NCBI GenBank assembly: GCA_965655095.1
Contig: OZ296652.1
Span: forward strand, 71,362,001-71,426,000
From: Haplodiscus bocki
Taxonomy: Eukaryota
DNA length: 64,000 nucleotides
Direction of reading: 5' to 3'
Shown here: positions 1 to 56,669 of the stretch, one piece after another
Layout: each line of letters starts with the position of its first letter
Position numbering within the stretch: position 1 is the first letter of the stretch
The notes under the pieces: model-generated
Seen by the model: only the letters and a program-made list of their open reading frames with translations
Databases searched by the model: none
What the model was told of the DNA's origin: nothing
Made by a program: the position numbers and the translations under genes

Positions 1-219
1 ACTCTTCCAATACTGATTGAAAGAAACAAAAACCATCAGATAACGCTCCCTAAAGGACGGATTGGATTTTCTTCTTTGGATATAGCTGATAAAAGAGAAC
101 CTAAGTATCAGATCTGGAACCCCTGTGAATTGACCAATGCCATAATGACGACAAACGACAAGTACAACGACTGCTTTTTTTTACACCCAACAATCCCCGC
201 ACAATCTCCAGATGATTGT

Positions 220-648
220 CTTCAAATAAATCACGGTACCGAAGATTCAGTATCGCAACAACCACACTCCATTGGACATTGCATCTCAGCAGATGCTAAG
301 ACGAGCAAAGTATTTGCCGACCTTTTTTCACAACGAATTGCTGGACTTCCAGATGCAAGCAGACGGACAAAATTGTTAACGGGACAAGCTTTCCCAATCT
401 GGGACCAAATTGGCAATCGATTTATCTCTAACTTCGTGACAAAAACAAAATGTTTTGAAAAACCTAACCTACCAATCTTATCCTTAACTCTAGAATCAAT
501 GAAGTCTCATGTTCGATTGCATGGAATATCAACCGATTCAATTCCTATAACCGGATGCGGACTTGATCAGATGAACTGACGAGAGGTTGTGAAACTGCTG
601 AGAGATATTTTCGCCTACTCAAATATCCGAATAGTAGTTTATACTCTA
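220..648 (+). pseudogene. TARG1/OARD1-like macrodomain within pol (upstream of RT)
   Basis: Frame 1 reads SIGHCISADAK...FVTKTK..EKP...LESMKSH...IPITGCGLDQMN*REVVKLLRDIFAYSNIRIVVYTL. This parallels TARG1 (SLAHCISED...LITKK...KP...LEAMKSH...MPRIGCGLDRLQWENV...ITVYTL). TGA at 577-579 replaces the expected Trp. Confidence 0.9.
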
Positions 649-1019
649 GAAGAAAATGGAGTACACGCTTTGTCGTCAGAAGGAGACCATGACTTCTATG
701 CGGAAGACGAAATTGAAAAGTAGATTGAAAAGTTTTAACTGAATGATAGAGATTTGGAAACGGACTTCACTAGAGACGCTAAATCCTGCCAACCGACATG
801 TGATGAACAGTTTCCCATTTTTTGGGAAAAAGATTACAACAATCATCTAATCGAACATTTTTGACAATACCAGCCAAAAGACTTTGTGCAATAAGTGAAA
901 GAATTTGATTTTCATTTCTCTGATATTACCGAGGAGGAGATGACTTATCGATATGTTAATTGATTCTAGCGTTGTCTATTCGCAACACAAATTCGATCTT
1001 GAAAAAACCTGTCAAAAGT

Positions 1020-1700
1020 TTCACGTAAAGTTGAAACTGAATGTCGAAATAAAAAGACAGAGACCAATAAAGTACCACTACATTTGAAAGATAGGTTGGA
1101 AAAACTTCTAACTCAACTTAAGGACGCAGATATTATTCGAAAAATGGGAGACGATGACGAAATGGGATCACTTTTTGTTAACCCCATCATCCTGATGCCC
1201 AACAGTGATTATCTGAAACTGGTCATAGATGCACGATTCCTAAACTCTGTTACAGACTTTACTAACTACTCGTGGCATCTAGAACCTGTACAAAAGATAA
1301 TGACCCGAGTGAACGGAAATTTTTTTTCTGTAAATGACCTATCCTCCGTATACAATCAAGTACCACTGAGTCCTGAAACCTAGAAGCTGACTAGCTTCAT
1401 CATCGGTGGTAGACAGTACACATATGCTAGAGGATTCTATGAAAAATGCGGTTTACCTATTTTCTTAGTAGACTAATGGAAATCCATTTTGAGCCGCTGA
1501 TTAAAAAGAACCAAGCAATAACCTATATAGATGACACTATAATGCAGTCGCAAAACAAAAGCGAAATATTCTTGATTATCCACGAGTATCACAACTTACT
1601 CAGGAAAGCTGGTTTAAAAGCCGCTCCCAAAAAAACCGTCTTCTTCCTCAAAAAATGAAACTTTTGGGACAAGTCATTTCAGCTGAAGGAATACAGCCAA
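1020..1700 (+). pseudogene. pol: Reverse transcriptase (pol), disrupted
   Basis: KLVIDARFLN, DLSSVYNQVPL, YIDD at 1524-1535, KLLGQVIS. Stop at 1381 and frameshifts. Confidence 0.95.
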
Positions 1701-2280
1701 TTGCAAAGCGGGTTAGGGACCTGATGAATCTTAAATCACCTCAGTCCAAACGAGGCGTCATGAAATTTCTGGGATGTCAGAGATTTTATAGTTGCTACAT
1801 CAAATATCTCCATGTGGATAGCAAACCATTCTGCGATCTCATTATCGATTCTACTTCTTTCCATTGGACTGAAGAGCAGGAAAAGATTTTTCAAATGATA
1901 AAGGATAGGATCAGTGAAGATACCTTTTTCACCATTCCATCTACTGAATATCCTTTTCATATTCACGAGGATTCAACTAACGTTGGACCGGATGCATCCT
2001 AATACAACAATTCCCAGAAAGGAAGCGGATAATTTCCTTCAATTCTTGTATTTTCGATGAAGCAGAGCAGAAAATATGTCCACTTCACAGAGAATTGTGT
2101 GGGATTGTCTCAGCGTTACAAACTTTTGAGCATTACATTATTGGATCTCGTTTTCCAGTATACTTGTTTTGTGACCAAAAACCCATCTTCAACTTATGGG
2201 GATGCAAGGGACAATTATCTCACCGCTTCTTTCGATATCAGGTTATAACAACGAAGTTCCAGAATTTGGAGAATTTTTGA
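1701..2280 (+). pseudogene. pol: RT connection and RNase H (pol), disrupted
   Basis: FHWTEEQEKIF, PFHIHEDSTNVG, RELCGIVSALQTFEHYIIG, FCDQKP: gypsy RNase H motifs. Confidence 0.9.
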
Positions 2281-3129
2281 TGAACAAGGACAACAGATAA
2301 CGTACAAAATCAACCACGAAGATACCACACCTGACACATGTAATGATTTTTAATCTATTCAATGCCAACAAGGTAAGGATCAGAAAGTAATCCGGTTGCA
2401 TAACGATGGTGAAAACTTTCCTCTTAACAGCATTAGCACTGATATTACCATGCCAACAGTACAGCCAGCTGCAGACCGTTTCCGAATGGGAAGGATTATC
2501 AACGAGTTCCGACGGTTATGCCAAACACGATTTCCAGTATCATTATCACCATCTGAAAGCTCCATCGGAACATAGAGTTCTATCAGTGTAATTGAGCCGG
2601 ACGGAACCGAGGAACCCGAACCTTCTTCGCATACCAAACTAGTAATGCAGGAGAATTGTGATATTGACGAAAGATGAAGATGACTACGTTTGTGGGATCA
2701 AAGGCAACGATCACTACCGCCTATGCAAGGCTCGAGCAGCTCACGACTCGGTACTTAGTAAACCTAATTCCTTTTCAGAGAAAAAGCCAGTATCAACTAC
2801 GGCTGCTCCTCACTTGAGAACCCAAGATTTGATTACCAAGCTGGATAACGTTGCAAAAGTTGTTGATTTTGATGTACCTACCATCCTACAAGAGCAACTC
2901 AAAGATCCAGTGGTAAGCATTGTACGCTCCTGGATTGAGGAAAGTGTCTCTCCCGACCCCAGTGCTCCAGAAATCCGACAGTTTAATGGTCTGCTCAGAT
3001 ACGGTCAAGAGTTAGATCGACTACTCAAGGAAGAATACGGACAACTCCTGTGTTTTGATGAACCCTCCGACAAATTAGACGAAAGGAACCTACGAATCAG
3101 CCTGCCTTTGTTGCTCTTTTTAGCTTGTT

Positions 3130-4739
3130 TTCGACTGGGACACTATAACGAGCTAGGTGGACACATGGGAGCTTCCAAGACCTACGCTAACGCTAAACGA
3201 TTTTATTATTGGCCAGGGATGTTCCACTGCATCTGCGCTTTAACAGCTGACTGTCTTGCACGTGAGAACAAGAAACCAAAACCTAAACATCTTAATGAGG
3301 TGCCACTGGATGAATGGCAAGGTGATACCACACCGTTTTGCGCAATATATATCGACCATACGGGACCTATCCATCCACCGGGTAACCGAAATACTCACTG
3401 ACTTTTGATAGTTGGTTCTTTTTCGCGTTTCCTAATAGTCTACCTTGTGACCAATACTGCAGTGCAAACTACGATTGTGGCGGTCGAAAGATGGATGCTT
3501 CATTTTGGAATCCGCCAGTCATTAATACACGATAGGGGAACAACTTTTCTTATCACAGACTTTATCAACTGGACTAAAGAGTTGGGAATTACCCTTCGAC
3601 CAGGTACAGCCCACTCAACTTGGACAAATGGCAAAGTAGAGACTCAGAACCAACATATTGCTTCTTATTGGAGAGTTTTTTCGAACAATGCTGGCACTAA
3701 TTGGGCTTCTCTTGCACCAAAATTTGCGTTCGCACGTAATACCAGTGTTAATTACACTACGGGTAAAACACCTTACGAAATTGTCTTCGGTACCAAACCA
3801 CAAATTGCCATGTCTGTCAAATTGGGACTCTACCGTAACAAACATATGATATGTTGTTCCGAAATCTGTACGGACCTGCCTCCTCATACTCACCACGAGA
3901 ACTCTACGAAGAATGAGCTTCTCCAGAAGTTACTCCGTCCACAACTATCTCGGATTTTGTCAAATCGAGGAAGAGATTTCAAACAAATTTACTTTTCCAC
4001 TTTTCAACGACGTCGAGAAAAAACAGCCCGTTCCCACGCATGCAGAAACAGATTTAAACTGGGACACCATTTACACGGTCAGAAATTTTTTTTGCGCAAA
4101 CCAGCGGCAAAACCTATCATAAACCAAAAACTACAACAGCGACCATTGGGTGCTTTCACTGTTATCAAACGTGTAACTAGTACTACCTGCCAAATTCAAA
4201 ACGACAAAGACCCATCCATCACAAAAACAGTACACCGTAACCATTTGGTTGAATATTATTCTAAAGAAGGATCACTTCCAGCTATGATTGAGGAACATGT
4301 ACCAGACTACCAACGAAATGATGACGATTTTTATGAACGGTTCTTGGAACAAAGAATTGGCAAATTGAACATCTTTACTGAGCCACTCGCAGAAGACACC
4401 ATTCCATTTCCAATCAGGCCATTACCTACGGCTCCGGCAGTCACCTCACGCAAACGCGATAGCGTCACCAGCAGTAACTCAGGAAATGGGTCATCTCAGG
4501 TTTTTTCGTCAACCCTACCCATTACGTCTGAACAACTACCACAACGTCCACAGGAGACGGTGACTGAACAGCCGTCAGCTTCGGCTCCAACCAGACCACT
4601 TACTCCCTTTCAACAATTTCTGCGGTACAGTCGAAAGTCCAAAGCGAGAGAACCAAGGTACGTCAAACCTCAGCCACACGATCCTATTTCTCAATCGGTT
4701 CTTCGTACCCTCACTTGCCAGCGTTATAAACTCTATTAA
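3130..4739 (+). pseudogene. pol: Integrase (HHCC, DDE, GPY/F-like), disrupted
   Basis: HYNELGGHMG...YYWPGM...DC; YIDHTGP; IHDRGTTF; TNGKVETQN; GAFTVIKRV. Stop at 3399-3401. Confidence 0.95.
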
Positions 4740-4829
4740 ACAACAATTCATTGTTGCTCAGTATTAGCCTACATTCTCTTTGTTTAGAACCTCACTACCT
4801 AAGTTTTCATTATTCATTTTTAGTACAAA

Positions 4830-5854
4830 ATGCCTAAATGTCACAAATTCTACCTTAACTGTCAGTGGACGGTTACTCACTTTTGGCCCAACCAGGCACT
4901 CGACACAGTACGTTTGGCTATATTTTGATGGAGTTATTCAACAAGCATAGTCGTGCGTGTTTCACACCTCTTCTACCACCTTTACTTAAACGGGATCTGA
5001 AGCGCAAAAGTATTCTTCAAATCAACGTTAACTCTCTTGCCATGCCAAGCCTTTACGAACTTTTGTGTTACCATTCCCTTGAACACTTAGATCCAAATAT
5101 GGACGAATTTCTTACTTTTATTCACTCTACACTATCTTCAGTTTATTCTTCTCCAGCAATTTCAACAGTTCTACCCGAAGCAACAAATGGCAAAATCACC
5201 TAACTTTGAATTTTACGATGTATTCTTCACAGAAATTGTGGAATGTGCAATCCCAAAACAAATGAATACCTCCCACGCAGAGAATTGGTAAAGACGTAAA
5301 AAGAACAAAACCAATGGGGGAGGATAACCCCGCCGGCAGGAGTTGCTTAATCCGTGCACGCACAGGAAGCCCCTGACTTCGGCCAAGGACCTCACCCGCG
5401 CCCGGAAGACAGCTTGTGGCGAACTCTCCATGGCCAGAGCAAGCTCCTCCTTTTGCTCCATCGTGAGGCCGAGCCACTCAACAAAGATTGCTCGAATTTC
5501 GAACAATAGCACCTCACCGGACTCGGACAAGACCATTGTTTCCCTGTTTTCCCCATAAAAACAAACCAAGAAGCTCAGGAATCTTGCCAACACCGGGCCC
5601 TATGCACTGGTGCTTCGTCATCACCCGGGTGATACCTCATGAAGGCTCTCCAACCATCTAACCAAAAGATGGCGGGCTCCACGAAGATTTACACGGAGCC
5701 GCCAAACGAAACTTCCACCGTGGAGTGGAAGAGCCGGAGCTCCGGGAGGGAGTCAATACCGTCCCACCCTACCACCTCGACGTCGACTTCACGGGGTTCT
5801 GCCATCTTTCAAAAAAACAGGAAGAAACAAAGGAATAACACCCAAAGCACTTAG
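4830..5854 (+). pseudogene. Possible accessory ORFs of the retroelement, unknown function
   Basis: Broken reading frames (4865-5203, 5343-5854) between pol and env; no recognisable motif. Confidence 0.35.
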
Positions 5855-6352
5855 ACAACAAAACAACAAACATTACCTCCCTGATTACCCGAATTCAATT
5901 CTTGTCTTCATTCCATCAATTTATCACTTCATTGTCAACTTCAGTTATTCCCTACCCGCAAACATTATCACTATTTTTCCCCGGAAGGCCCTGCTGTGAC
6001 AAAGCACAGCAGAACGGAAGAAAGAATGAAAGAAAGAAAGGAAGAAAAAGTATTGTTGCACGATTCCGTTTATTAGTTTTGCACAATTCCGCTTACATTT
6101 GAATCGCCTAAATTATTTGAATAAAATTATTTACCTTAAACTTATTTTCAGTAAATGTTTTAAATTAACAAATAATCACTTTATGAAAAGTCTAAAACTA
6201 GGTTTCCATTGAAACATCGTTCTCAGACATGATATTTACTCAACGGTACCAAACTACCCAGAAAAAACACAGCTCAACGCAACTGACCTACAATCCAACA
6301 ACTGGCAACGAACACTGTTAATACACAATCATTTGGGAAAATTTCTAATTAG

Positions 6353-6574
6353 ATGACAATCATATTCTTCAAACTCAACGGAGACACCTTTAATCTCAGA
6401 AAAAAAACCTACGATTAAACAACGGAGAGTTTTGATGTAGAAACAGAAGCGGTTGAAACTGGAATAAAAACAATTTTCAAGTGCCTGAAAGGATCAGAAC
6501 ACTATTCTTTTGTAGACGGTCTTTACAAAACCTTTCCACCTACAGAAATTGAAAGCCAGAAACGAAAGTTTTAA
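6353..6574 (+). pseudogene. Small accessory ORF A (~73 aa, internal TAA at 6416)
   Basis: MTIIFFKLNGD...TY...ETEAV...KCLKGSEHYSF..GLY...PP aligns without gaps to the next ORF (6592-6804). Confidence 0.6.
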
Positions 6575-6591
6575 ACGGTTATAAAAATCAA

Positions 6592-6804
6592 ATGACCACA
6601 GTTTTTCTCGAAATTAAAAACGATTCTTATCCTATTGAACACTTAACGTATAATTCAGAAACTAAACTATTTACAGTATTGACAGAAAGAGTCGGTGATT
6701 GGAAAAAAGTTAATTGTAAGTGCCCCGAAGAGTCAGAGCACTACTTTTTTAATAAAAGCCTTTATTTCAATTCGCCACCAGAAAACGTAAAGAGTATAAA
6801 CTAA
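6592..6804 (+). CDS. Small accessory ORF B (70 aa), paralogue of 6353-6574
   Basis: Intact ATG-TAA frame; shares MT..F, TY, TE.V, KC...SEHY.F, LY, PP with ORF A. Confidence 0.6.
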   Translation: MTTVFLEIKNDSYPIEHLTYNSETKLFTVLTERVGDWKKVNCKCPEESEHYFFNKSLYFNSPPENVKSIN

Positions 6805-7408
6805 ATGTTGGAGTAAAATATCCATGACGTACGAGCTCAATCTCAGGTGTATTTGGCAACATCCGACAACTGGAAACCATCTGGAGATAACGAAATTTGT
6901 TTGGGGAGAAGTTGAAAAGCCGATTATAATACAATCAAAAGCCTACGACAAGCTCAGCCAGGAACTTGGGAAATACCTATCAAACAAGACACAGAAGACC
7001 TCATCAACCTCCTGTCGTCTCTGGTAGATTTCACCAAGTTTCCTTTCTTCAATAAGTCTCACTCACTGCAAAAGCAACTGTTGAAAGAACTCATTCTTTA
7101 TTGTCAGTCACTAACTCTCAGCACTGGACAATCCAGTTCAAAACGACCTAAGACTAATTATTTGAGCTTCAACTCAGGTTAGAAAACCCCAATAGGCACA
7201 TTTTGACGATCCGGTTTCAGTTCGGCGTCGTTTTTTGACGATCGGTTCTAGTCCGACGTCCTTTATAAAAATCTCGGCGTCGTTTTACAGTAGTGGAGCA
7301 ACTACTATAAAATTTTTGCTCCCGCTTTGTCTTAGTGCCCACAAATCTGCCGGTTTGATAGTACGGCTTTCCTATTTACGGTTTATTTTTCTTAGCTACC
7401 CTCTACAG

Positions 7409-9564
7409 ATGGGACTTCCGCTACGAAAACTAGCGATGAAGCTTTTATTCTTTCAAATCTTCGCGCTTGCTGTCGATGTGGTTTTCAAATTACCTCCAGA
7501 TGAAGACCACGTTGCCCCAGCGCTAAAAGTAGCTCATTTTGATTGCAGTGAGATGACTGCAATTACTCTTTACGCCATAAATCAGGCATGACCATGCCAT
7601 ATTACGCATGAAGAATTGGAAATATGTACGGCTAAAGTTTTGCTCTACACCAAACATTTCAGAAGAACTTAAACGCTACAAAATACCGAGTACAACATCA
7701 ACGAGAAAAATGGCATTGCGGACACCATGATCAAAGCAGCATTGATCATACTGTTGCAGAGATTACAAGTGACATTGTTATCTCTCCAAAACAATGTCGA
7801 ACCTCAGCGATAAGAAAAGAGATTACCCTGCTCGGACCTTCGATAAACTTTGGTTTCGACACAAGGAACCCTTTTGTGAAAACTTCCAGTGACACCAGCG
7901 ATGCTACAGGAATGAATGTGACGGTAACGGTTGGATCGCTCGTGACACCCTCCTCCCTCACATGCAGACAACAACACTGAAAGTTATGTTAGAAAACGGT
8001 AAAGTTCTATCTGATACTGGTTTAGTTTTGGGATGTGAAACTACTTCGTTAGACCTCTATGCTTACATCTGGGCTATCTTGACAACTGTGCGATCTCAAT
8101 CCTTCGAACTGAGGAATCTAACATGGTAAAACAAGGAAACAAATATTATGTTATCAGTGGAGCCGATTCCAGCTCTGAATTTGTATTCGAAGTTAGAAAC
8201 AACCCTCAAAAACTTTGCGGAAAGCCGGCATCTATTCACCCTAGAAACCACGATTCCCTTTATATGGACCGGTTAAGCGAACTTTTGACATGGATACCGG
8301 AAGGAACCTGGGTCGTGATCAAAACGGAGCAAACAAGATCTTACAATACTTGGGACCAAAGGCGACTTCGGTCAATTTTATGCCCATAACCCCAAGTTAG
8401 AAGGAACGCAAAAGTCACAATTAGCAGACCCCGACAACTATCTGAATATCGATAATGGAATGCAACTTGGAACGAAAATTGACTATCTATTTTTTCACAG
8501 CTCGCAATTACTCCAAGCGACGAAAATACAGTTATTGCAAAACCAGTGTGAAGAAGATCGTACTCAAATTTTAACTAATCTTATGCTAGCTCTTGAGAAC
8601 CCACGTTTGGCCGGTTATATGCTCACTGGTAACCGATCAATGTTTCTGGAAACAGATGGAAACGTGGCATGGCTAAATCACTGCCCCAAAAGTTCAGTCG
8701 CCTCCTCACATAATGAACCAGTGTTATGATAAAATTCCGATCCTTTACAGATGAGAAATTCAATTTGTTGTCCTTATAACTTGACAAACCTATACTCATG
8801 CCACAATTCAAAACTGTTCTGATCGCATCAAGAACCTGTTTCAACTCAACATGGATCAGTGAGAGTCTTAGTACACTCTAACACCTGGTACTGTACACCA
8901 AGAGAAGCCTGCCCTATTTTGACTTCAAGGTTTTAATCCAGTTGCTTCTCACACTTTCACCGGATCACAGGATGCGGGAATGTACACCCGCAACGAGCTT
9001 AAAAAGTTTTGGGATAGCATTCTTATCAATGCCGCTTCGAGAACGGCACTTAAAAAGTTCTCACAAAATCCTATTGTCTACGCCACAGGCCAACAAGGAA
9101 CAGACAGCTCTCACTATTATACCCCACGAACCGAGTTCTTTGTGGATAAAATGATTTTAACTTTTAAAGATCAATTTTTGGACACATTTGGGCCTGTCGT
9201 TTATGTACTTGAGCATTGCGGAATTAATCTCTGAGTCTTTTTGCTCACCAGGTTTTTAATTAATGCGGTAGTTATGATCGTGCGTTGCATGGAAATAGAT
9301 AAGATAACTGGTTCCACTATAGGATTTGTTAAGATCCTTTTGAGTGCATCGTACAATATCTTCTTGACGAGTGTCTTAACTTTCATGCATAACCCAACAG
9401 CTCCGGCGATAGCTGCTGTTGAACACATGGAGGTAGGTCCATATGTCGAAAATGATATGCATGAGGTGAAGGAGGATGAGAAAAAAAGAAGAGCACCTCT
9501 ACCCTGCAATGAGCACGGTAACACTACCATTGTCACCTGTTTAAAATTTTTCTTCGTTTACTGA
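7409..9564 (+). pseudogene. env: Envelope glycoprotein, chuvirus-like/class III fusogen family, disrupted
   Basis: Signal-peptide-like KLLFFQIFALAV, AHFDC, many Cys, SPKQC, G.VAWL..CPKV...NQCYDKIPI, GMYTRNEL and a C-terminal hydrophobic segment (VFLLTRFLINAVVMIV). Splice-acceptor-like CAG directly before the ATG. Confidence 0.8.
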
Positions 9565-10253: not shown

Positions 10254-11222
10254 ATGAATTATTTTCTTCCTGGATCCTTTGGATTACCCGAAGAACCTAC
10301 TCCGTCTACGCAAGTGTTTCCCACACATGGGAGTCCAACGATACCATCTTAAGGGCCCATGTATTCTACTTTATTACAGTTGCGCACTCATGTTGAGACT
10401 GAAAAATTCGAAAGGACAGTCCTCAAGCAACTGCTTCAGCGTCCTCAAAAAGACTTTGCCCTTCTGCAGCCTCAACTTTAATCAGTAGATCAGCCAACCA
10501 CAAGTAAGTCCTCTTCACTTGAAACTAAAATTAAAACTTTAGAGAAACGCCTTTCTACTGAGACTTGCAGATACAATTCGCGACTAAATTCTCTAAAACA
10601 TCAGTTATCAACTATGGGCGATCAAATCTGCCAGTTCGAACACAGCAATTCCAATTTCATTTTGTGAAAGATCACTTCTATCCAACTTGTAATTGAGTCT
10701 GGCAGATTATGGTATGTGAAGCCTGGGCGGGAAAATGCTCCATCCACCCAATTTCGCAGCCCTATTTTTCGCTCTCATCCATATGGCTAAAACTTTCATT
10801 CAAATTTGGACCCATATTAATTTGCCGCTGCTATCGGAACATGGGCTTCTATCTCTTTTTCTTTGTCTGCTCGAGATTATGATGACATTCTGCCTCCGCC
10901 GGTCTCAAAGACGATCCAAATCAAAGTGCGTGACCAACTGAACCCTCTTAATGCCTGTAGCCAGACAATCGAGTCCAAAGAACTAACTCGACCAACCTCC
11001 GCGGAGTTCTCCACTGTACCGACAGTTCGATGCCCTTATTTCTTCCCTCACAAGAAACATTTCAATGAAACTGATGGATACCTCTGTAATGACACTCTAT
11101 ATTTTGAGATTTCTCTTTCTGACCCCCCAATACAACCTATCCAGTCTTCTCTCCTTTTTCCTATCCGCAGAGACCCCCAATCATTTTCAACACCTTGTCA
11201 GTGGGTTGAGTTGTCGCGTTAG
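10254..11222 (+). pseudogene. TRAF-family protein (coiled coil + MATH/TRAF-C, no RING/zinc fingers), in-frame stops
   Basis: One frame: heptad region then NFIL*KI, FRSPIFRSHPYG, GTWASISFSL, DYDDILP..VSKTIQIKVRDQ, LTRP, CPYFFPH, GYLCNDTLYFEI. Matches the TRAF-C consensus (FIWKI, SPAFYTSRYGY, GTHLSLF, DALLRWPF..KVTLMLLDQ, FQRP, GCPLF, YVRDDAIFI). Confidence 0.88.
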
Positions 11223-11306
11223 CCATAACGCTAAACAGTACCAGTGCTAAATTTAGAAATGACATAATAGAAGTAATATTAGAAACTCACCGTTTGAAGG
11301 GATAGT

Positions 11307-13991
11307 TGTTGGAGACCGGTAACAATGTTGGATTTGCACATTTTGAAACCTCAAAAAATCGTTGACATGCCTCAGCCGGATATCAACGAAGCTTCTCTAT
11401 TCGTTAACCCCCCCCCCCCCCGGTATCGGAATTTGATACTTTTGCTTCGCGAACGGCACACCTTGCTTCCTAAGAGTTCACTTTTTGACTCCTTTTGCAG
11501 GATCACCATACTTGGTGTTCCTTGGCGCAAAGTTTACAGTACTTGGTCATAACCTTGGAAAATACGAGAGCTCGGAAAAACTGAGCGCTGGCCGCCAACC
11601 GAAGGAATCATAACTTTCCTGATCGCTTACCGTCAACTCCCCACTCCAAAAGCAAAAACCACTAAATTCTCAACTTTCTTCTAAAATTTTGGAAATTTTG
11701 GAAATTTCTCAACTCTCTTCTTCTGAAATTTTGGAAACATAGAAACTTGAAACCGCTACAAAAATTCTGCCTTTTCGATATTGGAAATTTTTATAGCTTT
11801 GGGAAAGAGACAACTATGCAAAGAAACTCAAATATTCCAATTGTTGGAAAGGGAGTAGACTGTTGCCAACAACCTATTGACTATAAATCTAGTTTCATCA
11901 TTTGGAATAAAATGAAATGTTAGTATCTAAAATGACTAACCCTGGTAGAGCACAACTCGCCAGATGAACCTAGTTAATTAAGATAGGGTCCGGCGGCAGA
12001 TACTCTGAAGAAGAGTTGCCACGGAATTTGCTCTGAACAAGAGCTCAATGAAACTTTCCGATACCTAAAAGAAATCGCTCGATGTTTCTTCCATTTGGGG
12101 TTGTTACTTTTTTTTGGCTGCCTCCATTGAAGTGAATTGATGCTGAGTCTTAGATAAAATTACTTACCAACCCAGTTTCGATCAGAATCAGGTTCATTGG
12201 TTAACCGATGGTAATTGCCTGAACCTAGGAGAAATCGCACGGTTGCTACGCCATAAAACGAGTTACCGTAACTTAATTACTAACCCAAAACTTCTGATCG
12301 GAACTGAGCCAGCGGTCAACAAAATCACTAGATTTTTTTCTACGGGTTCACAACTGGCCTAGGAGATATCGCTAGGTTGATTCGTCACGCGAATTACTTA
12401 GCCTTAGCTAAACTGACTTCGAAGTTCACTTTAAAAGAACTCTGTTAGAAAAGACGGATGACTTTATTGTCCGTTCTAGCACAAACTTAAAGCGAATCGA
12501 TGGTGCTCAAAGGCAACTCTACTCCGACAAGGTTAGAAAAGACATTGCTTATTCTTACTGGAGCTACTAATAATTTCGTATTTCATTTTCGCGTCAGTTA
12601 AAAGTGCGTGCTACATTCTTTTCTTTGAATTTTAGTTGAAAATTTTAGTTTCATAATTTTGACATTACATTTCTGGGTGTTGATAAAAATTGATCGAACA
12701 GAGTTGAATGGTAATGTTGCTAACGCTCTTACTTTGAATGAAATTAGAAAAGAGTGAAATTTGAACCAAATCTTCTGCGCTTAAAACAGTACCGTCCCCC
12801 TGGTGAACTCTCTACCAAGTTTGACATTACAAGTATTGTATTTGAAGCCATAACTTTCCGAGTTTATATAACAGAACTGCTTGCGTTGAATAAATTTTTG
12901 ACAAATTCTCTAATCACCCAATAGCAATTCACTAAGTCCTTGCCAGCGCATTCACGCTCTATTTTGTTCACGCGAGCCGGCAAGGCAACTTTGAGACTTA
13001 AGTTTGTTTAATCAGTAACGGCCGCACACCAGAAATATGACAAGTCTTTGACAACATAAAGCATGAACCGAAATCTGCCACTCCGCGAAACATACTGGTG
13101 CAATCAGTGAGGCCAAATCATTTTTTGTGATGATGCTTTGAGTGAAGTTTACGAGTTTTTCAATTCTGTTGTGCTACCTCCTCCTGGCCTGTTAATTTCA
13201 GTTTTGGTCATTTTCCTAACTGTAAATTATAAAATCACAATTGGATCTCTACTCTTGGTGCTAGTGAGACTGAGTATTTTATATCGACACTGGATTTCTC
13301 CGAGTGATCACGTACGAATTTAAGTTGAGTGACCGTGGATGAGACGTGACTTGATTGTAGCTCTTTATTTTCTCTTTTTCACGATAGACCCCTCCTATTG
13401 ACCCCACCTTATCTTCTCGCTGTGATACGATTGGAACGAATCATAATTTGACAGAACTGTGATTCCTGACGTGGATGAACGACCTCCTGAATTCTAAAAA
13501 ACTCGATTCTTTTTGTATCCTCTTATCTCAACTCTTCTGAATGAGACATAACCTCATCCTAATCTTGTATTTTTATCTCTTGCAATCCTTATTCTACTTT
13601 TGGGACCGGGATATCTTTTATCTGTAGTTCAATTAATGCTACTCATTAAAAAACTCAACAACCATATTTGAATGCCACATACGGCAAACCAAAACTCATT
13701 TGTGAACTCTCTACCAAGTTTGACATTACAAGTATTGTATTTGAAGCCATAACTTTCCGAGTTTATATAACAGAACTGCTTGCGTTGAATAAATTCTTGA
13801 CAAATTCTCTAACCACTCCATAGCAGTTCACTAAGTCCTTGCCAGCGCATTCACGCTCTATTTTGTTCACGCGATCCGGCAAGGCAACTTTGAGACTTAA
13901 GTTTGTTTAATCAGTAACGGCCGCACACCAAGAAAGTGACAAGTCTTTGTCAACAAAAGACATGGACCGAAGTCTACCACCCCGCTCGACA
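11307..13991 (+). repeat. Putative long 3' LTR region
   Basis: Purine tract GAAGGGATAG (11296-11305) precedes TGTTGG; ends ...CTCGACA; contains TATA- and AATAAA-like motifs. No 5' LTR in the window to confirm. Confidence 0.5.
12803..13991 (+). repeat. Pair of ~290-bp direct repeats (12803-13092 and 13702-13991)
   Basis: Near-identical GTGAACTCTCTACCAAG...CACACCA blocks, each with TTTATATAA and AATAAA and ending in CA. Confidence 0.95.
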
Positions 13992-15754: not shown

Positions 15755-16906
15755 TCAAGCGTCTGCTTCTTTCGTGAAGCAAGTACTAGCCAATCGCCTT
15801 TCTCGAACGGATCTGGATTCTCGTTTGAGGATGATTACTCTGGTGTCTTCTCGGAATCTGTCACTCAGGACGGCGTAGACTATGGGGTTGAGGGCAAAGT
15901 TGAGATAGTACCCCAACTGGGCTGTTTTTATTGACTGGGAAAAGAACATACGGGTGTTGAAGAAACTTTCGGGGCTGGCAAAGAAGACAAAATTGATGAT
16001 AGAACTGGGAACAAAACAAAAGATATAGACCAGAGTGACGCAGATGAGAATCTTGACAGTCTTGTCTCTCATTTCCTCCATAATATGTCGAGGTTTCTTT
16101 TCCTGCGATGTCGACGTCCCGGGATTGTTGCTCGCTTTCGATTTCAACTTCCTGTCTGATTCTACAGGATCAGCAGGTGTGATCTCATTGTCGTCGGTTG
16201 CTACGACAATAATTCCGCCTGTCCCGTTTCGAGTGGGCGGGACTTTGTTGTTTGTTTGTTTATTTGTCATAGCCATCGAAGCTTTCTTCAGTCTTTGTTC
16301 ACGAGCCTTTCTTGCTTGCGCGTTTACAGTCATGTACACTAAGGTGTACAGAATGATGATTAGAATCAGGACTCCAAACAGAACAAGAGGATACACCAGG
16401 TGAGCCACCAAAATTAAAGTGGGTGCAAGCACAGGGAATGCGGATAGGATCACAGCCAGCAAAATTGAGCCGACACTCATCAGAACAGCCTTGGTTGGGT
16501 TCATGAGATAATGTGTGGCCCAACATATTGCGAGGTACCTGTCGATTGCAATGCTTAGGAACAGCAAAGCTGAAGAACATTCTAAAAACATGCTGAAGAA
16601 TAAGAGATAGTCAGGGGGCTCGTTGCATGTTGCAGTGTCGGACCACACGGTGTAGATTTCCCAAGGAATGAAGAAGAGGGAACCAAAGAGATTGATAGCA
16701 GCCACACACAGCATGAATATTTCATGGGGGCATTTGCTCTTTTTCAGGAGGTAGACTGCAGTTATGAGTGAATTTGCACAAGCTCCGATCACAGCTGCAA
16801 CTGTTAGGTATGCAATAACGAGACTGCATTCTATTGGGGTGTAAGCAAGTCCCGCAAAAGGGTGTGGCGTAGAAGCAGGTGTGATCTCAGCAGAAGTTCC
16901 GTTCAT
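15755..16906 (-). CDS. Class A (rhodopsin-like) GPCR, 383 aa, intronless CDS, orphan
   Basis: Seven hydrophobic segments, N-terminal NGT sequon, TM1 Asn, IAIDRY, TM6 CFVP, NPIVY, helix 8 SDRFR; uninterrupted ORF. Confidence 0.95.
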   Translation of the reverse strand: MNGTSAEITPASTPHPFAGLAYTPIECSLVIAYLTVAAVIGACANSLITAVYLLKKSKCPHEIFMLCVAAINLFGSLFFIPWEIYTVWSDTATCNEPPDYLLFFSMFLECSSALLFLSIAIDRYLAICWATHYLMNPTKAVLMSVGSILLAVILSAFPVLAPTLILVAHLVYPLVLFGVLILIIILYTLVYMTVNAQARKAREQRLKKASMAMTNKQTNNKVPPTRNGTGGIIVVATDDNEITPADPVESDRKLKSKASNNPGTSTSQEKKPRHIMEEMRDKTVKILICVTLVYIFCFVPSSIINFVFFASPESFFNTRMFFSQSIKTAQLGYYLNFALNPIVYAVLSDRFREDTRVIILKRESRSVRERRLASTCFTKEADA

Positions 16907-18652
16907 TGCTGCAGTCCTAAACGATTCAAAGTAAGTTTTGATTGATAGCCTTAAAGGCTTTGAGAGGTCTTAGCTTCAATCACAAAAATTTGATAGATTT
17001 TCAACGGAAGTTGAAAAGCTTTGAATAAAAAATTTTATAGTGACCTTACATAATATTTTATGCGCCAACTTCAGATAAATCAGCTGAACAGCAATTCAGA
17101 TAACAGGGTGAAATACGGAAACGCTTCTCTGAATTTTTATGATAATTGGCAAACTCAAAAGTATGTCAATTTTCGAAATTTTCTGCGCATCACAAACAAT
17201 ACCCACAGACACACTGCAACGTTTTCTGTCAAAGAGGTGTAGAAATGGTTGATCGAACACACAATAAAGGATTTTCGACTGAATAGATAGTTGTCGATTG
17301 AGATTTTCTTGGAAGAAATCAAGACGAGAGCTTTAGAAAATGATGAGTTTTAATATCGACGAAATAACAACAAGACGTCCGGCTAGCACGGGCATATTTT
17401 TCGCCCAATTACAAATTTTCTGGTCAAAAATTGTTTGGGAAACTTTGTTTGAGTATCAAGACGAATCAGACCAATATTCATTTTTGGCTAGTTTCGCCCA
17501 ACAAGTTACCGTTGCCAGGAAATAAATGCCTTGTCTGGCAGTCAAGTGATTTTTAGGAGTAGTAAAGTGTTGATTCATACCCTAATGGACGAAATACAGC
17601 CAGTTCCTTTGGAGAACAAATGGTTTGGTTCCCAAGTAAAATCGAAAACTTTTGCGCTCTCCCGCCTTTTCGGTCTTAAAATTTTCCGATGTCAGAAACA
17701 TTTGCGAAAGAATTGCTATTGAACAATGCTCTACAATAGCAAAGTTGTTGACTGAGAACTCAATGTGAGAAATTTAAAGGGTAGTTTTTGAAAAACTCGA
17801 CATTGAAAATCCAGACATTTCATGGATAAGCAACCATTGGCACTTTTTCCCTATCCAGTTTGCGTTGCCAGGAACCAAGCGCAACAATTTACATGCCTGA
17901 ATAGTTTTTAAGGGTAAACAAACAGTCAACTGATACCCTGATGAACAAAGGGCAGTAAATAATTTTTTTGAAATGCGTTTTGTTTTTCGCCAGGAGTTAA
18001 AAACATCCACATTTTGGCTATATCGGCTCAAAAGTTTGCCATACAATGACATTTTTCAGGAATGTCATACTTGAGCAAATTTCTGAATATTGACGTTTGA
18101 TGATGGGGGCCTTGATAGCAGATATCCAGAAGGTTGTTTCCAAAACAGTCCCGTTTGTTTATCAAGATTGTTCAATTAAAGCTGAACTTCTTGACAATTA
18201 ACCGTATGAGGTTTCCGTTCTGAAGAACGAAACACAACATTGGACAATCGAGACGGAATATACAAGTATGAAAACGTCGACTGAGGCATTGACTGGAAAA
18301 ACGTAGTTGGCAGTTCTGGCGAGATTCAGGTGCGATTTGCGAGTAAAATCAAATCATATGAACAGTTTTCAGCAAACTCCTTTTCTTGAGCTTCTGATGG
18401 GAGAACAGGGATCAAACAATTTGTTTGTCAAAGACGTTTTACAAATTGGAAACTGTCAATTGACACATTGATGGAACGGTTATAGCCGGTAGTATCGAAG
18501 AAAAATTGTTTTTATTACCAAGGTTGATCATACGGCAGTTCTTGCTTTTTTTGGTCAAAATGGTTTCTTTTAGATAGTTCAAATGGCAATACATGTATAT
18601 CTCAGACCATTAGAAAAGGTGACAAAACTAGAGCAGGGCTCTGTTGATGAAA

Positions 18653-43810: not shown

Positions 43811-44119
43811 TTCGTTTAGTAATGCACACATAGCCATGCTCGTGTTCAATAAAATATTAGTCTCAGGTATAATAACATGTAAGTCCACATTTACACAAAC
43901 ATAGCACCTGCCTTTTTATGTACACGCGAGATTGAAAAATTAATTTGAGCACGTGTGAAATTTGGATGTTGTGCGTTTCGAGGTAATTGTAAGCTGATGG
44001 CAAACCAATACTACACCTATGCTTGGTTGAAAGGTATGTTTTCTCAGAAACATGTTTACTGTCAGTTTTACTAGCATGATAACTAACACTTAGTTTTTAA
44101 AGAATATCTCCAAGACTAC

Positions 44120-44366
44120 ATACTTGATTTATGTCAAAGAAAAGTTGAAAATTAAAAATTAAAAAAAAAATAAAAATTAAAAATTGAAAACTCAAAATTA
44201 AAAATTAAAAAATATGAACTTACCATCTTACCACAGCAAAAACAGGACTCTGTCATTTTTCAAGTTTTAATTTTAGTTTTTAGTTTTTAATTTTAAATTT
44301 TTAATTTTCAATTTTTTTAATTTTTAATTTTTAATTCTAAGGTGTACTTTCAAATAAAAATCAAGT
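44120..44366. repeat. Imperfect hairpin with (AAAAATT)n / (AATTTTT)n arms
   Basis: Arms ~44147-44212 and ~44256-44338, flanked by ACTTGATT / AATCAAGT. Confidence 0.7.
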
Positions 44367-45479
44367 CAAACTACAACATTAATTTAAAAAATCATGTTTT
44401 TTTATACTATGTCAACGGGGCAGCACAGGAAAAGTAAAAAATTTCAAAAGTGTCTTCTTCAAAAATAAGACATGATCGTACAACATTAAAAATATAACAT
44501 ACACATTCTTATAAAATGAAAATCAGGAAAAACTATAAAACCAGTTTGAGCATGTGCAAGTTTTGAAATTGGCGCCTTCCTAGGTATGTGTTCGCTCACG
44601 ACAAAACAATATATGAATTTCAACATTTCACCAAGCATTTAGTGCATTTCTTTAGTTCCAATTCAGACGCCATGAACGCCAAAATTACGTCGAATATAAA
44701 CCTACCAAAGAAACTAAAGAAACTCGGATCTTGACAGGAGACTGTTTTGGCTGGTGTAGCAGATTATTTGACGGAGGAAGAGAAGTCAAATATTACACTC
44801 ACACTAAGCAAAATGACCAGCTCTCTTATAACATCAACATAGAAGAAGAAGATAGACCTTCCACCCAAAATACTACAGAGACCCCAACATTTGAGGTCTT
44901 TGTCACATTATTCAAACACGAGATTCGTGCATATAAGGAGTCAGACAAAATGGCCTGCTAAATGTTTTTCACGGTGGACAAATTCCGATTCAAGACGGTT
45001 CTATATCAAAACTTTGATCCGATGTATTACCAACGATACATCACAGCACTAAAAATGTTTGAAAATCAAACCAATCGAGTTTTGCTGTTTCTTGAAGCAA
45101 ACCGAGGTTTCATTTATTCATAAATGCGAGAAGATTGTTTGCAGAAAAATATCACATGAAAAGAATATATCACGGTACGAAAACTATCGTACACGACAGT
45201 CAGCAACCATTTTCAGTTTCTTGAGCTTGTTGCAGAGTTTCCCAGAGTGCTCGTATCTAACGCAACTAAAAAAGAATGGTTCAAGTTCTTGAAACAATTC
45301 AAAGATGTGATACAAGATGACGACAGCATGAAAACGAGGCTCTCGGCAAATCTAAAGGAATTTGTGGAGGAGAACAGTTTATTCGAAGACGTTGGTGAAA
45401 ATTTTAAGATCTGTTCTCCACCCTAATTTATGTGTCATATGAAATATGTAAGTTTTATAGAAGTTAATCTGGGGGTATA

Positions 45480-45762
45480 TATATTATACTATAACTCCAC
45501 ATGTTGTAAAATCCGTTTAGGCGAGATTTATACATTATAACATTTGTTTACATGTTTAAGGAATCGTTAACTGAGCTTTAACCATTATAGCATATCTCCA
45601 CACGTTTAAGGAAGCGTTAGCTGATCCTTCCACATTATACCTTATCTCTACATGTTTAAGGCACCGTTAACTGTTTTTTATACATTATAGCATATCTTCA
45701 GGTGTTTTAAGATCAGTTGAAGCGAGATTTATACATTATACTACATCTTTACTTGTTTAAAG
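45480..45762. repeat. 50-bp tandem repeat, ~6 diverged copies
   Basis: (C)ATTATA...CATGTTTAAGG..CGTTAACTGA at 45484, 45533, 45583, 45633, 45683 and 45734. Confidence 0.85.
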
Positions 45763-46622
45763 ATAGGACATACCATCTTACCATGGTGAAAGTTGATATT
45801 CGGCGGTTCGATACCAATCGATATATCATACCATAATTAGTATACTCTAAAAGGTTCAGCTTCATAGATATCATAGTTTTCAATAAAAAAAAATTTGAGA
45901 AAGATCAAGGGACTAAAAGCCAATTAGAACCACTCAAGTCGAAACTTTCTTTCATTTCTCCATGGTATAAACAGATCAAGAAATCAATGAATTTCTGAGT
46001 CACAGAAAAGTATAATTTATCATAAAAAAGGTCCTAATAATTCGACGATTATCTATTCAAAAACATTAACTGAAACGTTACTATTGAAAAAAACGCGAAA
46101 ACGATAAAACTATACCCTGAAACTTGGTATGTCAATGAAAAGTTCCTGATATTGATGACATAATTTATATCGTTGAAAAGGTCAAGAAAGACTCTATTCA
46201 ATGATAACATTTTCTGAATCGTTGACTAAAATGATCAAAGATGATAAAATGATCAAATAGATTTACATAAAAGATGTCAAATATGATAAAACGATTGAAC
46301 ACAAACTAATGTTCAATTACAAGCTCAATAGTATCAACAAATTGTTTAGAACTAACCAAATAAAAAATAAATTCCCGTAGTGAGTTTGTTTTTTCTAATT
46401 GAAAATCTAATTTTTTAGCCAGAATTAATATCTTCATTTCATCAATCATATTTAGAGCTTCAATCAATTTTAATACATTGTAAACTTCAAATTCAATAAC
46501 GAATCGTAGTTTTACACTTCGTCATTATTTGTATTATCAGTAAAATCAAGCTCGTTTATAGAACAAAAGACATCTTTCATTGTCTCTATTTGTATGCATA
46601 GAAAACGATAAATTTATAATAA

Positions 46623-47163
46623 TCAAACACGATAACTTTCAAATATTCTATTCAAAGGATGTGTCCAATTTCGATTTGATTTGTTCATCAAAGTTTTGTT
46701 TTTGTTAGTCATAGCGTATAGTTTCCATTCTAGAGCAAACATATTGCGGTTGATATAGATATCATATGTCATATACAATATATTAGAAAATGTTATAATT
46801 TTCATTTCTGCTAGATGATTGAAATTCTAACCCTTATTTTTAGAATCATTGGTTACATTTTCTAAAAATTTATACCAATAACACATTGTATTTTTATCAG
46901 ATAATTCCGACGTGATATATGGACAATATTCATAATCATTAAAAACTAATTCGAATTGGCATTTCCTGAGAAAGTAATCGAACTTTTTTTTATATTCAGT
47001 AATGAATGAATTATACTATTTACCTCCTTTCTGTTAGGATTTTCAATAGTTAATATTATATGTTCACAATTGACGAATTCTTTATCAAAATTCAGTTTAA
47101 AATGTTTATATCTCCTCTTAGATTTGATTTATTTATCACATATTTCACAATAGTAATCCAGTT
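46623..47163 (-). pseudogene. Polinton zinc-finger-like protein, disrupted
   Basis: YYCEICDK*IKSKRRYKHF...KKKFDYFLRKCQFELVFND...MTYDIYINRNMFALEWKL. Confidence 0.6.
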
Positions 47164-47316
47164 AAATAGAGTTTTTGTCAAAAAAATGAACATTAAAACG
47201 AATTTAATTGAAGAATACGTCAACTTTGTCAATACCACAAAGAAAATAAATATTTTAAAATAATTTTTTCAATTGCATTTAATATAGCTTTGTTTATTTT
47301 ATTTTATTTAAATATC

Positions 47317-47662
47317 TAAACGGATAATACTTTTTCTCTAGATCGAAATACATAAAACTGGAAATCTCAAGGCTGAATTTAGAATGAGGCTATACAACTT
47401 AGATAAGATGGCGAAATTTGCGGAAATCAAATCTACCAACCCTGAATTAAAGCAATCTCAAATAGCCAATTTATTGGAATTATCATCTTCTACGATACAA
47501 CGATATAAAAGAGAAATAGTTATGCTTTCACCTTATAGGATACCACCATCAAGAATCAGTCTTACAAGAAAACGAAAGACACCAAACACGAATTTTGATG
47601 ATGTTGAGGTGACCTCAAATGACCTTAAAATGACCTCAAATGACCTCAAGCGAATCAGTTAA
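47317..47662 (+). pseudogene. Helix-turn-helix DNA-binding protein
   Basis: LKQSQIANLLELSSSTIQRYKR is a classic HTH pattern. Confidence 0.65.
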
Positions 47663-47749
47663 ACCTATGAAAAACAAATTGAAAGGTGGTGCAAAAATTG
47701 AAATTAACAAAATTATCTAGATGAAGTCATCCATAGTAAATACCGTAAA

Positions 47750-48530
47750 ATGGATTCAGCTATACAACATATTTCTAATGATAGAACAGTAAGAAACGAT
47801 ACAATGGTTGATATAAAAGAATTCAACAATCAATCTTTATCAACACAAGCTAAAAAAGGAGAACAATTAGTTTCCATGATGCCTGCTATTAAAAAACGTT
47901 TAAATTATTAGGTGATGATATCGTGGATTTATCTACAGAAAATGTTGCCCTAAAGATTAAAATAGGCTCCTACGATGAAAAATGGTTAGAAGTATCTAAG
48001 GCAAAACAGTTAAAACGGATCGATATTGAGAAAACAGCAAAATTAGTTATGTGTAGATTGAAAAAACAGATGAAAAAACATTGAATAAATGGCGTATATA
48101 TATTATAATAATTTATGGGAAAGCAAGTTTCATAATTTTTTTTCTAAAAGGGATAAGCTTCAACATTTGAAAATTAATCAACTGAAACTGGAGGTACATG
48201 ATACTTACAAAAATGATGAAAAAATAACAACAAAATTTGAAGCTGTTGATGATGAAGATGTTATAAACAAAGCTTATTTAGCCAAAAAATAGTAAAAATA
48301 GGCGGTCATGTTTCATATAAAGAAAAATATTATACCGAATATAAATTACAATACAACAAATAGTCTGTAGAAGAAATTTTAATTCAAAGAGCTGTGAAGA
48401 CGACGATACAAATAAATAATGAAAATGTTTATTTGATAATTATTAATTTGCTGATGAAGTTTTAAAAAAGTTTTCTGTTTGTTACAAGGCGTACAACTGA
48501 TTTAGAGGAAGAAAATGATGATGTTGTTCA
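47750..48530 (+). pseudogene. Two Polinton proteins of unknown function (start ~47750 and 48089)
   Basis: Coding-like broken frames; DDEDVINKAY motif in the second. Confidence 0.45.
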
Positions 48531-48940: not shown

Positions 48941-49157
48941 TATCTTTGATGTTTTCTGTAAATTAAATGACATTAAGAAAAATAACTGTTCATGATTGTG
49001 TAAAATTGATAGAAAACGTGATTAATTAAGAGAAAGTAAACCGAACACGATAAAGAATATTTTACTTCCTAGAAAACAAAATAAAAATCTTTCACAAAAC
49101 TATAAAAAAATCATTAAAAACGTAGCAGCAAGTGGGTATGGTATTCTTAAATGAAGA

Positions 49158-50227: not shown

Positions 50228-50234
50228 TAAATAA

Positions 50235-51336: not shown

Positions 51337-51339
51337 AAC

Positions 51340-51733: not shown

Positions 51734-51747
51734 ATTATGCTATATAA

Positions 51748-53190: not shown

Positions 53191-53195
53191 CATAA

Positions 53196-56613: not shown

Positions 56614-56669
56614 TTTATTTATTATAAATTTCAATGAAGTTTTTCTATTTCAAATAAAATAATACTATT

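What the first reader, a model, noticed from the sequence alone, without database searches (positions are those of the whole stretch)
220..648. TARG1-type macrodomain embedded in pol upstream of RT
Near full-length correspondence to TARG1/OARD1, in the pol reading frame, retaining the TK and GCGLD motifs that hold the catalytic Lys and Asp. TARG1 and the related DarG remove ADP-ribose from Glu/Asp residues and from thymidine in DNA. Inference: a virion-packaged hydrolase protecting element proteins or cDNA from host ADP-ribosylation. The GxGIA loop reads SKVFA, so specificity may be altered.
Basis: partly seen in the sequence, partly recalled or inferred. Interest (0 to 1): 0.75.

Follow-up and report, generated by a model that had tools for sequence, protein, structure and literature searches.

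The report
ADP-ribose eraser inside retrotransposon Pol
This is a broken copy of an abundant envelope-carrying jumping gene whose replication polyprotein has a TARG1-like domain inserted before the reverse transcriptase; that domain likely strips ADP-ribose tags, possibly to counter a host defence (untested), and several sister lineages are predicted to have partly lost the binding pocket.

Summary
Observation confirmed with corrections. Window 220-648 matches human TARG1 (E 2e-17), with the K84 and D125 equivalents at 442-444 and 565-567. This copy is dead: a TGA at 577-579 lies inside the domain and pol has further stops and frameshifts.

Intact relatives carry the domain in frame as protease-[mid region]-macro-RT-RNase H-integrase (P0050, 617-member cluster). 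Lys is kept in 129 of 136 and Asp in 128 of 134 relatives. A relative's model superposes on TARG1 (Z 21). The domain is a ~140-residue insertion in one RT clade; 15 relatives spanning the site lack it.

'SKVFA' is copy damage (Val 1 of 128, Gly 112). The family-wide changes are Phe for Ile44 and no GDLF motif. The domain diverges fast; three lineages degrade the pocket yet keep the Lys. Distant Gypsy elements carry the domain after RNase H or after integrase.

A hydrolase role is likely; an anti-defence role is inferred. Macro domains in fish retroviruses are in print; my searches found no paper on Gypsy Pol. The scan reported the same arrangement before on other DNA, in this genome and another.

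The parts
1..219 (+). End of the pol region between protease and macrodomain ('mid' region plus a short helical stretch); protease and gag lie upstream, outside the window
   Evidence: tblastn of P0050 aa 217 onward starts at window 4; the region is also present in macro-less siblings
220..648 (+). TARG1/OARD1-type (ALC1-like class) macrodomain in the pol frame; broken in this copy
   Evidence: phmmer to human TARG1 E 2e-17; model of relative P0049 matches TARG1 at Z 21.0, rmsd 1.8 A, 141 residues
301..318 (+). Loop 1 (TSKVFA here; TARG1 residues 40-45); the Val is near-private to this copy, the Phe is family-wide
   Evidence: Val 1 of 128, Gly 112 of 128, Phe 127 of 128; Phe in 2 of 93 non-family rows
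442..444 (+). Lys equivalent to catalytic TARG1 K84 / DarG K80
   Evidence: kept in 129 of 136 relatives and in all 7 lineages compared
553..567 (+). GCGLD loop 2, with the D125-equivalent Asp at 565-567
   Evidence: Asp in 128 of 134 relatives
577..579 (+). Premature TGA inside the macrodomain, before its last helix and strand
649..2280 (+). Acidic linker, RT and RNase H of pol, with stops and frameshifts
   Evidence: Pfam RT_RNaseH E 5e-13; tblastn segments in frames 1, 3, 2, 1
2646..4739 (+). Integrase (zinc finger, core, C-terminal SH3-like), one internal stop
   Evidence: Pfam Integrase_H2C2, rve, Integrase_p58_C
7409..9564 (+). Decayed env-like gene (mononegavirus/chuvirus-type fusion protein), probably of the same element
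   Evidence: Pfam PF24664 E 8.6e-10 in one of three frames read with X at stops; same strand, downstream of pol
10254..11222 (+). Decayed coiled-coil plus TRAF-C/MATH accessory ORF, probably of the same element
   Evidence: Pfam PF21355 E 8.9e-8, above cut-off; TRAF1/TRAF5 E 0.0015-0.017; region is repetitive in run X2
11296..11317 (+). Purine tract followed by TG; candidate polypurine tract and start of the 3' LTR
   Evidence: read by eye; the 5' LTR is outside the window, so it is unconfirmed

Best explanation
The stretch is a broken copy of a TARG1-type macrodomain inserted in frame between the protease region and reverse transcriptase of an env-bearing Ty3/Gypsy Pol; in intact lineages it is likely an active ADP-ribosyl hydrolase, which would remove host ADP-ribose marks from the element's own proteins, RNA or cDNA. 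Shown: TARG1 fold and dyad, in-frame position in relatives, insertion into one RT clade, preferential retention of TARG1-conserved columns, and a dead window copy. Inferred: (1) it is made as part of Pol and so would travel with RT and integrase in the particle; (2) it would work by the TARG1 Lys/Asp Schiff-base route on Glu/Asp-, thymidine- or phosphate-linked ADP-ribose; (3) the marks come from host PARP-type enzymes acting against the element; (4) three lineages have drifted towards reduced or non-catalytic forms.
For: Fold: TARG1 takes Foldseek ranks 1-8, then DarG; VIA Z 21.0 TARG1, 18.5 DarG, 14.1 MacroD1/2; pLDDT 83-98 across the domain. Dyad: Lys and Asp both kept in 117 of 128 relatives; canonical Lys and GCGLD in the majority of covering members of 5 of 9 high-copy clusters sampled. 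Selection at protein level: TARG1-conserved columns are more alike than other columns in 20 of 21 lineage pairs at p<0.05, e.g. 31 of 37 against 37 of 108 for P0163-P0168 (pairs not independent); the Lys is one of only 10 invariant columns of 145. Recurrence: Gypsy Pols about 28-31% identical in RT/RNase H carry the domain, with Lys and GCG[LI]D, after RNase H (P0385 of Athalia rosae, P0340/P0496) or after integrase (P0366, P0291/P0495). [quoted passage not shown]
Against: No activity, expression or substrate data. The domain is dispensable: 15 relatives spanning the site lack it, some in clusters of hundreds of members (P0175 373, P0191 1183). It is the fastest-diverging folded part of Pol: 10 of 145 columns invariant (7%), against 24% in the mid region, 23% in the linker and 6% in a low-complexity spacer. 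Clusters P0169/P0170 read ASELE for GCGLD in every covering member, with Glu at the G123 position that blocks binding in TARG1; P0167 and P0176 are also degraded (16-20 of 37 conserved columns). The N-terminal GD of the GDLF motif is missing in all 7 lineages and Ile44 is Phe, so even canonical lineages could bind differently. A single origin of all retroelement copies is not rejected (AU p 0.26), so recurrence may be shuffling between elements rather than repeated capture. No host anti-retroelement ADP-ribosyltransferase is known here.
Confidence: 0.5

Rival explanations
1. One reading: the domain binds ADP-ribose/PAR or RNA without needing catalysis, for example tethering Pol to genomic RNA or steering the pre-integration complex to PARylated chromatin.
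For: The fold core is kept while pocket loops decay in three successful lineages. TARG1 binds RNA through basic surface patches even when G43E or G123E (PMC5928194). Loss of catalysis with retention of the domain recurs in alphaviruses (PMC10221186, passages).
Against: The Lys is invariant in all 7 lineages and an acidic residue stands at D125 in all. The domain is only mildly basic (16-22 K+R against 13-19 D+E). Position upstream of RT is not the usual integrase-tail site of targeting modules (recalled).
Confidence: 0.22
2. Repair helper rather than counter-defence: an active hydrolase that clears incidental PARP1/2-type marks from cDNA ends or integration gaps so that reverse transcription and gap repair finish.
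For: Among 30 longer non-family hits scanned, TARG1-type domains are fused to DNA ligase or LIG3-BRCT (7), uracil glycosylase (1), TatD (1) and NADAR (2) domains. TARG1 protects replicating DNA. It uses the same residues as the best explanation.
Against: Fast divergence and lineage-specific pocket loss fit a conflict better than housekeeping; close siblings manage without it; the element also seems to carry a TRAF-like signalling gene.
Confidence: 0.18
3. Tolerated passenger: a captured host TARG1 fragment kept only as a folded in-frame spacer and now decaying.
For: Identity falls to 18-38% in pairs with the degraded lineages, near the unconstrained RNase H-integrase spacer (14-45%); absent from siblings.
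Against: Surface catalytic and pocket residues, not only core residues, are kept across lineages 43-48% identical in the domain; no deletion of the domain was seen inside the clade among proteins spanning the site; it recurs at two other Pol positions.
Confidence: 0.1

Closest known systems
Human TARG1/OARD1/C6orf130 (PDB 4J5S, 4J5R, 2LGR), ALC1-like macrodomain class
   Same: Fold (Z 21.0, rmsd 1.8 A over 141 residues, 33% identity); HCIS-D, TK, KP and GCGLD motifs; K84 and D125 equivalents.
   Different: A domain inside a retroelement polyprotein, not a stand-alone cell protein; Phe for Ile44 in 127 of 128; no GD of GDLF; pocket degraded in three lineages; activity untested.
Bacterial DarG macrodomain (PDB 5M3E, 5M3I)
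   Same: Same class and catalytic Lys (Z 18.5; NF048014 E 5e-13 for P0049).
   Different: About 20% identity; score 49 against cut-off 250; DarG lacks the Asp of the dyad (PMC9411070), which this family keeps; no DarT partner or DarG C-terminal domain seen.
Macro-domain ORFs of fish epsilon-like endogenous retroviruses (review PMC4977317, one passage seen, citing Basta et al. 2009, which was not held)
   Same: A macro domain carried by an LTR retroelement.
   Different: Vertebrate retroviruses, described there as additional ORFs; macrodomain class not stated; here a TARG1-class domain in Gypsy Pol between protease and RT.
Macrodomains of alphaviruses and coronaviruses (nsP3, nsp3 Mac1)
   Same: Polyprotein-embedded ADP-ribose erasers in a host-virus conflict, with recurrent loss of activity (PMC10221186, passages).
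   Different: MacroD-type (Z 14-16 here) with a different catalytic set; RNA viruses without a DNA step.
Enzyme captures by Gypsy elements: orchid Gypsy AlkB m6A demethylase (PMC9289625, passages); planarian Burro cargo with MATH_TRAF_C and a dUTPase-like region between PR and RT (PMC6431247, section 7 read)
   Same: A Gypsy element fixing a host mark-erasing or signalling domain; a TRAF-C ORF and a mononegavirus-like env occur here too.
   Different: Different chemistry; the Burro review has no occurrence of 'macro' or 'ADP-ribos'; this element is much shorter than Burro.

Membership tests
TARG1/ALC1-like macrodomain class | Compact alpha/beta/alpha macro fold closer to TARG1 and DarG than to MacroD | tested here: met
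   Model of relative P0049: Z 21.0 TARG1, 18.5 DarG, 14.1 MacroD1/2; Foldseek ranks 1-8 TARG1
TARG1/ALC1-like macrodomain class | Catalytic Lys (K84) | tested here: met
   Window 442-444; 129 of 136 relatives; all 7 lineages
TARG1/ALC1-like macrodomain class | Asp of the dyad (D125) in GCGLD, with Gly123 | tested here: met
   Met in the window and in 128 of 134 near relatives; not met in clusters P0169/P0170, which have Glu at both positions
TARG1/ALC1-like macrodomain class | Loop 1 G43-I44 and N-terminal GDLF of the ADP-ribose pocket | tested here: inconclusive
   G43 kept in 112 of 128 relatives but not in the window copy; I44 is Phe family-wide; GD not matched in 7 of 7 lineages, though an alignment shift is possible
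TARG1/ALC1-like macrodomain class | ADP-ribosyl hydrolase activity | not testable with these tools
   needs an assay
Cellular TARG1 orthologue | Stand-alone host gene outside a mobile element | tested here: not met
   In frame in Pol between protease and RT in 34 of 34 held proteins spanning both; the set was gathered through the domain or its clusters
DarG antitoxin (DarTG) | Full-length NF048014 match and an adjacent DarT gene | tested here: not met
   Score 27-49 against cut-off 250, macro part only; neighbours are RT and integrase
Ty3/Gypsy LTR retrotransposon | Pol order PR-RT-RNase H-integrase | tested here: met
   P0050 Pfam order; window RNase H then integrase
Ty3/Gypsy LTR retrotransposon | Gag upstream and paired LTRs | tested here: inconclusive
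   Gag-like protein P0151 is filed in the cluster of Pol P0056 and a similar gag end precedes pol in L001; the window starts inside pol, so only a candidate 3' LTR start is seen
Env-bearing Gypsy element | Env-like gene downstream of pol inside the element | tested here: inconclusive
   PF24664 E 8.6e-10 at 7409-9564, same strand; linkage was not checked in a second full copy

The most novel reading that the evidence does not exclude
Animal Ty3/Gypsy elements have repeatedly built TARG1-class erasers into Pol, at three positions, because invertebrate hosts ADP-ribosylate retroelement cDNA, RNA or proteins as an unrecognised defence, a eukaryotic echo of DarT/DarG. This clade records the arms race, with fast divergence, a remodelled adenine pocket and lineage-specific loss of the phosphate loops, and it points to a host transferase that may modify nucleic-acid bases.
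Probability: 0.3. Interest if true: 0.85.

Novelty: new variant of a known kind. Interest (0 to 1): 0.58.

Why it matters
Viral macrodomains are the classic sign that hosts use ADP-ribosylation against RNA viruses. A TARG1-class eraser kept in retrotransposon Pol suggests the same chemistry acts on retroelements in invertebrates. TARG1 is the non-redundant human eraser of thymidine-linked DNA ADP-ribose, yet no human transferase for that mark was known to the authors of PMC8501950 (passages). This clade offers natural canonical, degraded and domain-less lineages side by side, so the question can be tested with isolated domains. The window copy itself is an ordinary dead relic.

Tried and rejected
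No own genome is held, so no copy census or dN/dS. Related-locus scans gave 1 locus in metagenome contigs, ending before the domain, and none in viral contigs. No RNA holder was listed among 4 runs, which says nothing about expression. Contigs laid on 1-1500 show many diverged copies, but none spans the stretch.

One search used a mis-set region (252-400; the domain is 289-433) and one search had wrong anchors for loop 2; both were superseded. P0003 looks like the collection's gene call on this same contig and was left out of all counts. A single-sequence model of P0282 failed (pLDDT 33) and was not used. The careful RT tree did not finish, so the quick tree is quoted.

The macro trees do not resolve the donor. 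The AU test does not reject one origin for 11 retroelement-type rows among 42 (p 0.26); two of those rows, P0290 and P0292, were grouped by tree position only. The idea that the mid region is dUTPase-like is recalled from motif likeness and from PMC6431247: no Pfam, PDB or Atlas support, low pLDDT.

Rejected: 'SKVFA means altered specificity'; a cellular TARG1 gene; a DarG antitoxin; a chance match.

Literature: six searches for prior reports plus one search showed no paper describing a TARG1-type domain in Gypsy Pol. I saw listings for most hits and passages for PMC4977317, PMC4695847, PMC6431247, PMC4245714, PMC11696869, PMC9289625 and 10.64898/2026.07.25.740670. One search was uninformative. 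Basta 2009, Sharifi 2013 and a review of eukaryotic transposon diversity were not held; Repbase, GyDB and supplements were not seen and may already note the domain.

Full report
What is there. Frame 1 of the + strand from 220 to 648 encodes a macrodomain. Read with X at its one internal stop, it matches only human TARG1/C6orf130 among PDB sequences (E 2e-17, query residues 15-143 of 147). The Lys of TK (442-444) aligns with TARG1 K84 and the Asp of GCGLD (565-567) with D125 (numbering counted back from the chain end at 152 shown). The frame is broken: TGA at 577-579 falls inside the domain, with more stops at 721, 736, 862 and 892. Downstream lie RT, RNase H and integrase in at least five frame segments. 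Further on are a decayed env-like gene (PF24664, E 8.6e-10), a decayed TRAF-C/MATH ORF (PF21355, E 8.9e-8) and a candidate polypurine tract at 11296 (by eye). An intact rhodopsin-family GPCR ORF at 15755-16969 points to an animal host. The best relatives other than this contig's own gene call are at most about 78% identical over the full domain, so the copy is probably old.

The family. A search among longer proteins gave 121 hits of 418 candidates, 120 listed. They include uninterrupted Pols such as P0050 (1827 aa, cluster of 617) with the order protease, mid region, macro (289-433), RT, RNase H, integrase. Of 164 held proteins, 143 other than the window's own carry the domain. The Lys is kept in 129 of 136 that cover it, the Asp in 128 of 134, and both in 117 of 128. 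All 12 proteins over 1500 aa and all 34 that span protease and RT carry it; this set was gathered through the domain or its clusters, so it cannot show absence. An AlphaFold model of relative P0049 has pLDDT 83-98 in the domain and superposes best on TARG1 (Z 21.0, rmsd 1.8 A, 141 residues), then DarG (18.5), with MacroD1/2 at 14.1 (Foldseek agrees).

The SKVFA loop. Relatives mostly read MSKGFA or MGKGFA: Gly in 112 of 128 and Val in 1. Gly stands there in 93 of 93 non-family rows (these are top hits to the query, so conservation is biased upward). In TARG1, G43E, I44E and G123E each abolish ADP-ribose binding and activity (PMC5928194, passages). The Val is therefore best read as decay. Two differences are family-wide: Phe at Ile44 (127 of 128, against 2 of 93 outside) and no match to the GD of GDLF in 7 of 7 lineages. 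That this Asp contacts the adenine in macrodomains is recalled, not tested. If specificity is altered, these are the places.

Origin within the clade. An RT-based search gave 78 proteins. Of the 38 closest, 9 carry the domain, 15 span the site and lack it, and 14 cannot tell; none of the other 40 matched. The alignment shows a clean gap of about 140 residues in P0171-P0175. In a quick RT-RNase H tree of 34 rows, the carriers form one group of 13 (SH-aLRT 95; 12 carry the domain, one lacks its N-terminus), sister to four domain-less rows. The simplest reading is one insertion in the ancestor of this group.

Selection and decay. Across one natural protein from each of 7 lineages, only 10 of 145 macro columns are invariant (7%), against 24% in the mid region, 23% in the linker, 55% in RT and 6% in a low-complexity spacer; pairwise identities tell the same story. 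Yet the invariant set includes the catalytic Lys and its strand. The 37 columns conserved among 87 non-element homologues are better kept than the rest in 20 of 21 lineage pairs at p<0.05 (pairs not independent). Fifteen members were listed for each of 9 high-copy clusters. Five clusters (617, 854, 201, 498 and 415 members) keep Lys and GCGLD in most covering members. P0167 (168) reads EDGLD and has lost the loop 1 Gly. P0176 (131) reads mostly ACGGD. P0169 and P0170 (36, 108) read ASELE in all 22 covering members, which puts Glu at the G123 and D125 positions and predicts a blocked pocket.

Other elements. A search of 1.84 billion representatives found 2806 homologues, 150 listed. Of 30 mostly longer ones scanned, 3 are other Gypsy Pols: domain after integrase (P0366), between RNase H and integrase (P0385, Athalia rosae, followed by a second, degenerate-looking motif) and after RNase H (P0340). 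A fourth, P0291/P0495, ends in the domain after integrase. Their RT-RNase H is 28-31% identical to P0050, and they keep Lys and GCG[LI]D. Different positions in distant elements suggest repeated gain, but the AU test does not reject a single origin with later shuffling (p 0.26), and the donor is unresolved. Other fusions among the hits are to DNA ligase or LIG3-BRCT, uracil glycosylase, TatD and NADAR domains.

How it likely works. Shown: fold, dyad, frame and clade-limited insertion. Inferred: the domain is translated in Pol and would accompany RT and integrase. In canonical lineages it would hydrolyse ADP-ribose by the Lys/Asp route described for TARG1 (PMC9411070, passages). Plausible substrates are thymidine-linked marks on single-stranded DNA (PMC8501950, passages), ADPr caps that block translation of RNA (PMC9458441, passages) and Glu/Asp marks on element proteins. 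Fast divergence and lineage-specific pocket loss resemble alphavirus macrodomains (PMC10221186, passages) and favour conflict over housekeeping. I put hydrolase activity in canonical lineages at about 0.7 and the counter-defence role at 0.5; reader or RNA binding 0.22, repair helper 0.18, passenger 0.1.

Against what is known. It works like TARG1 and meets the class features tested, but it is neither a cellular TARG1 gene nor DarG. Macro domains in fish epsilon-like retroviruses are in print (PMC4977317, one passage), TARG1-like homologues are noted in many viral genomes (PMC4245714, passages), and enzyme capture by Gypsy elements has precedent (PMC9289625, passages). My searches showed no paper on a TARG1-class domain in Gypsy Pol; subscription papers, Repbase, GyDB and supplements were not seen. 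The scan has noted the same protease-RT arrangement before in this genome and another, and the other positions too. These are unchecked notes and not support; they gave me the lead to look for env.

Verdict. A real captured domain in a successful retroelement clade, seen here in a dead copy: new variant of a known kind, interest 0.58.

Noticed in passing
window 10254-11222 (+): Decayed coiled-coil plus TRAF-C/MATH ORF between env and the candidate 3' LTR (PF21355 above cut-off; TRAF1/TRAF5 hits). The region is repetitive in run X2, so it is probably element cargo, as MATH_TRAF_C is in planarian Burro elements.
   Followed up: partly
window 7409-9564 (+): Decayed env-like gene of the mononegavirus/chuvirus fusion-protein type (PF24664).
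   Followed up: partly
window 4740-7400 (+): About 2.6 kb between integrase and env with several decayed frames (e.g. 4859-5203, 6553-6804, 6916-7182) and no Pfam match in three frames; may hold further accessory ORFs.
   Followed up: partly
window 1-100; P0050 aa 150-245: Conserved beta-rich 'mid' region between protease and macrodomain, also in macro-less siblings; its end resembles dUTPase motifs (recalled), with no tool support; unnamed Atlas clusters from molluscs and rotifers score 0.94-0.95.
   Followed up: partly
window 2273-2521; P0050 aa 980-1100: A conserved unnamed segment between RNase H and integrase (25 of 115 columns invariant), found across the wider clade.
   Followed up: no
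window 15755-16969 (-): Intact single-exon rhodopsin-family GPCR ORF, 404 aa (7tm_1 E 3e-22).
   Followed up: partly
window 44000-62000: AT-rich stretch (25-32% GC) with decayed ORFs that look like Polinton/Maverick parts (recalled); no Pfam match for 6 ORFs tested.
   Followed up: partly
window 12803-13086 and 13702-13985: 284-nt direct repeat, 94% identical, 899 nt apart.
   Followed up: no
proteins P0300, P0314, P0318, P0322, P0342, P0347, P0374, P0388, P0336, P0339, P0360: TARG1-type domains fused to DNA ligase or LIG3-BRCT, uracil glycosylase, TatD plus Ulp1 protease, and NADAR domains.
   Followed up: no
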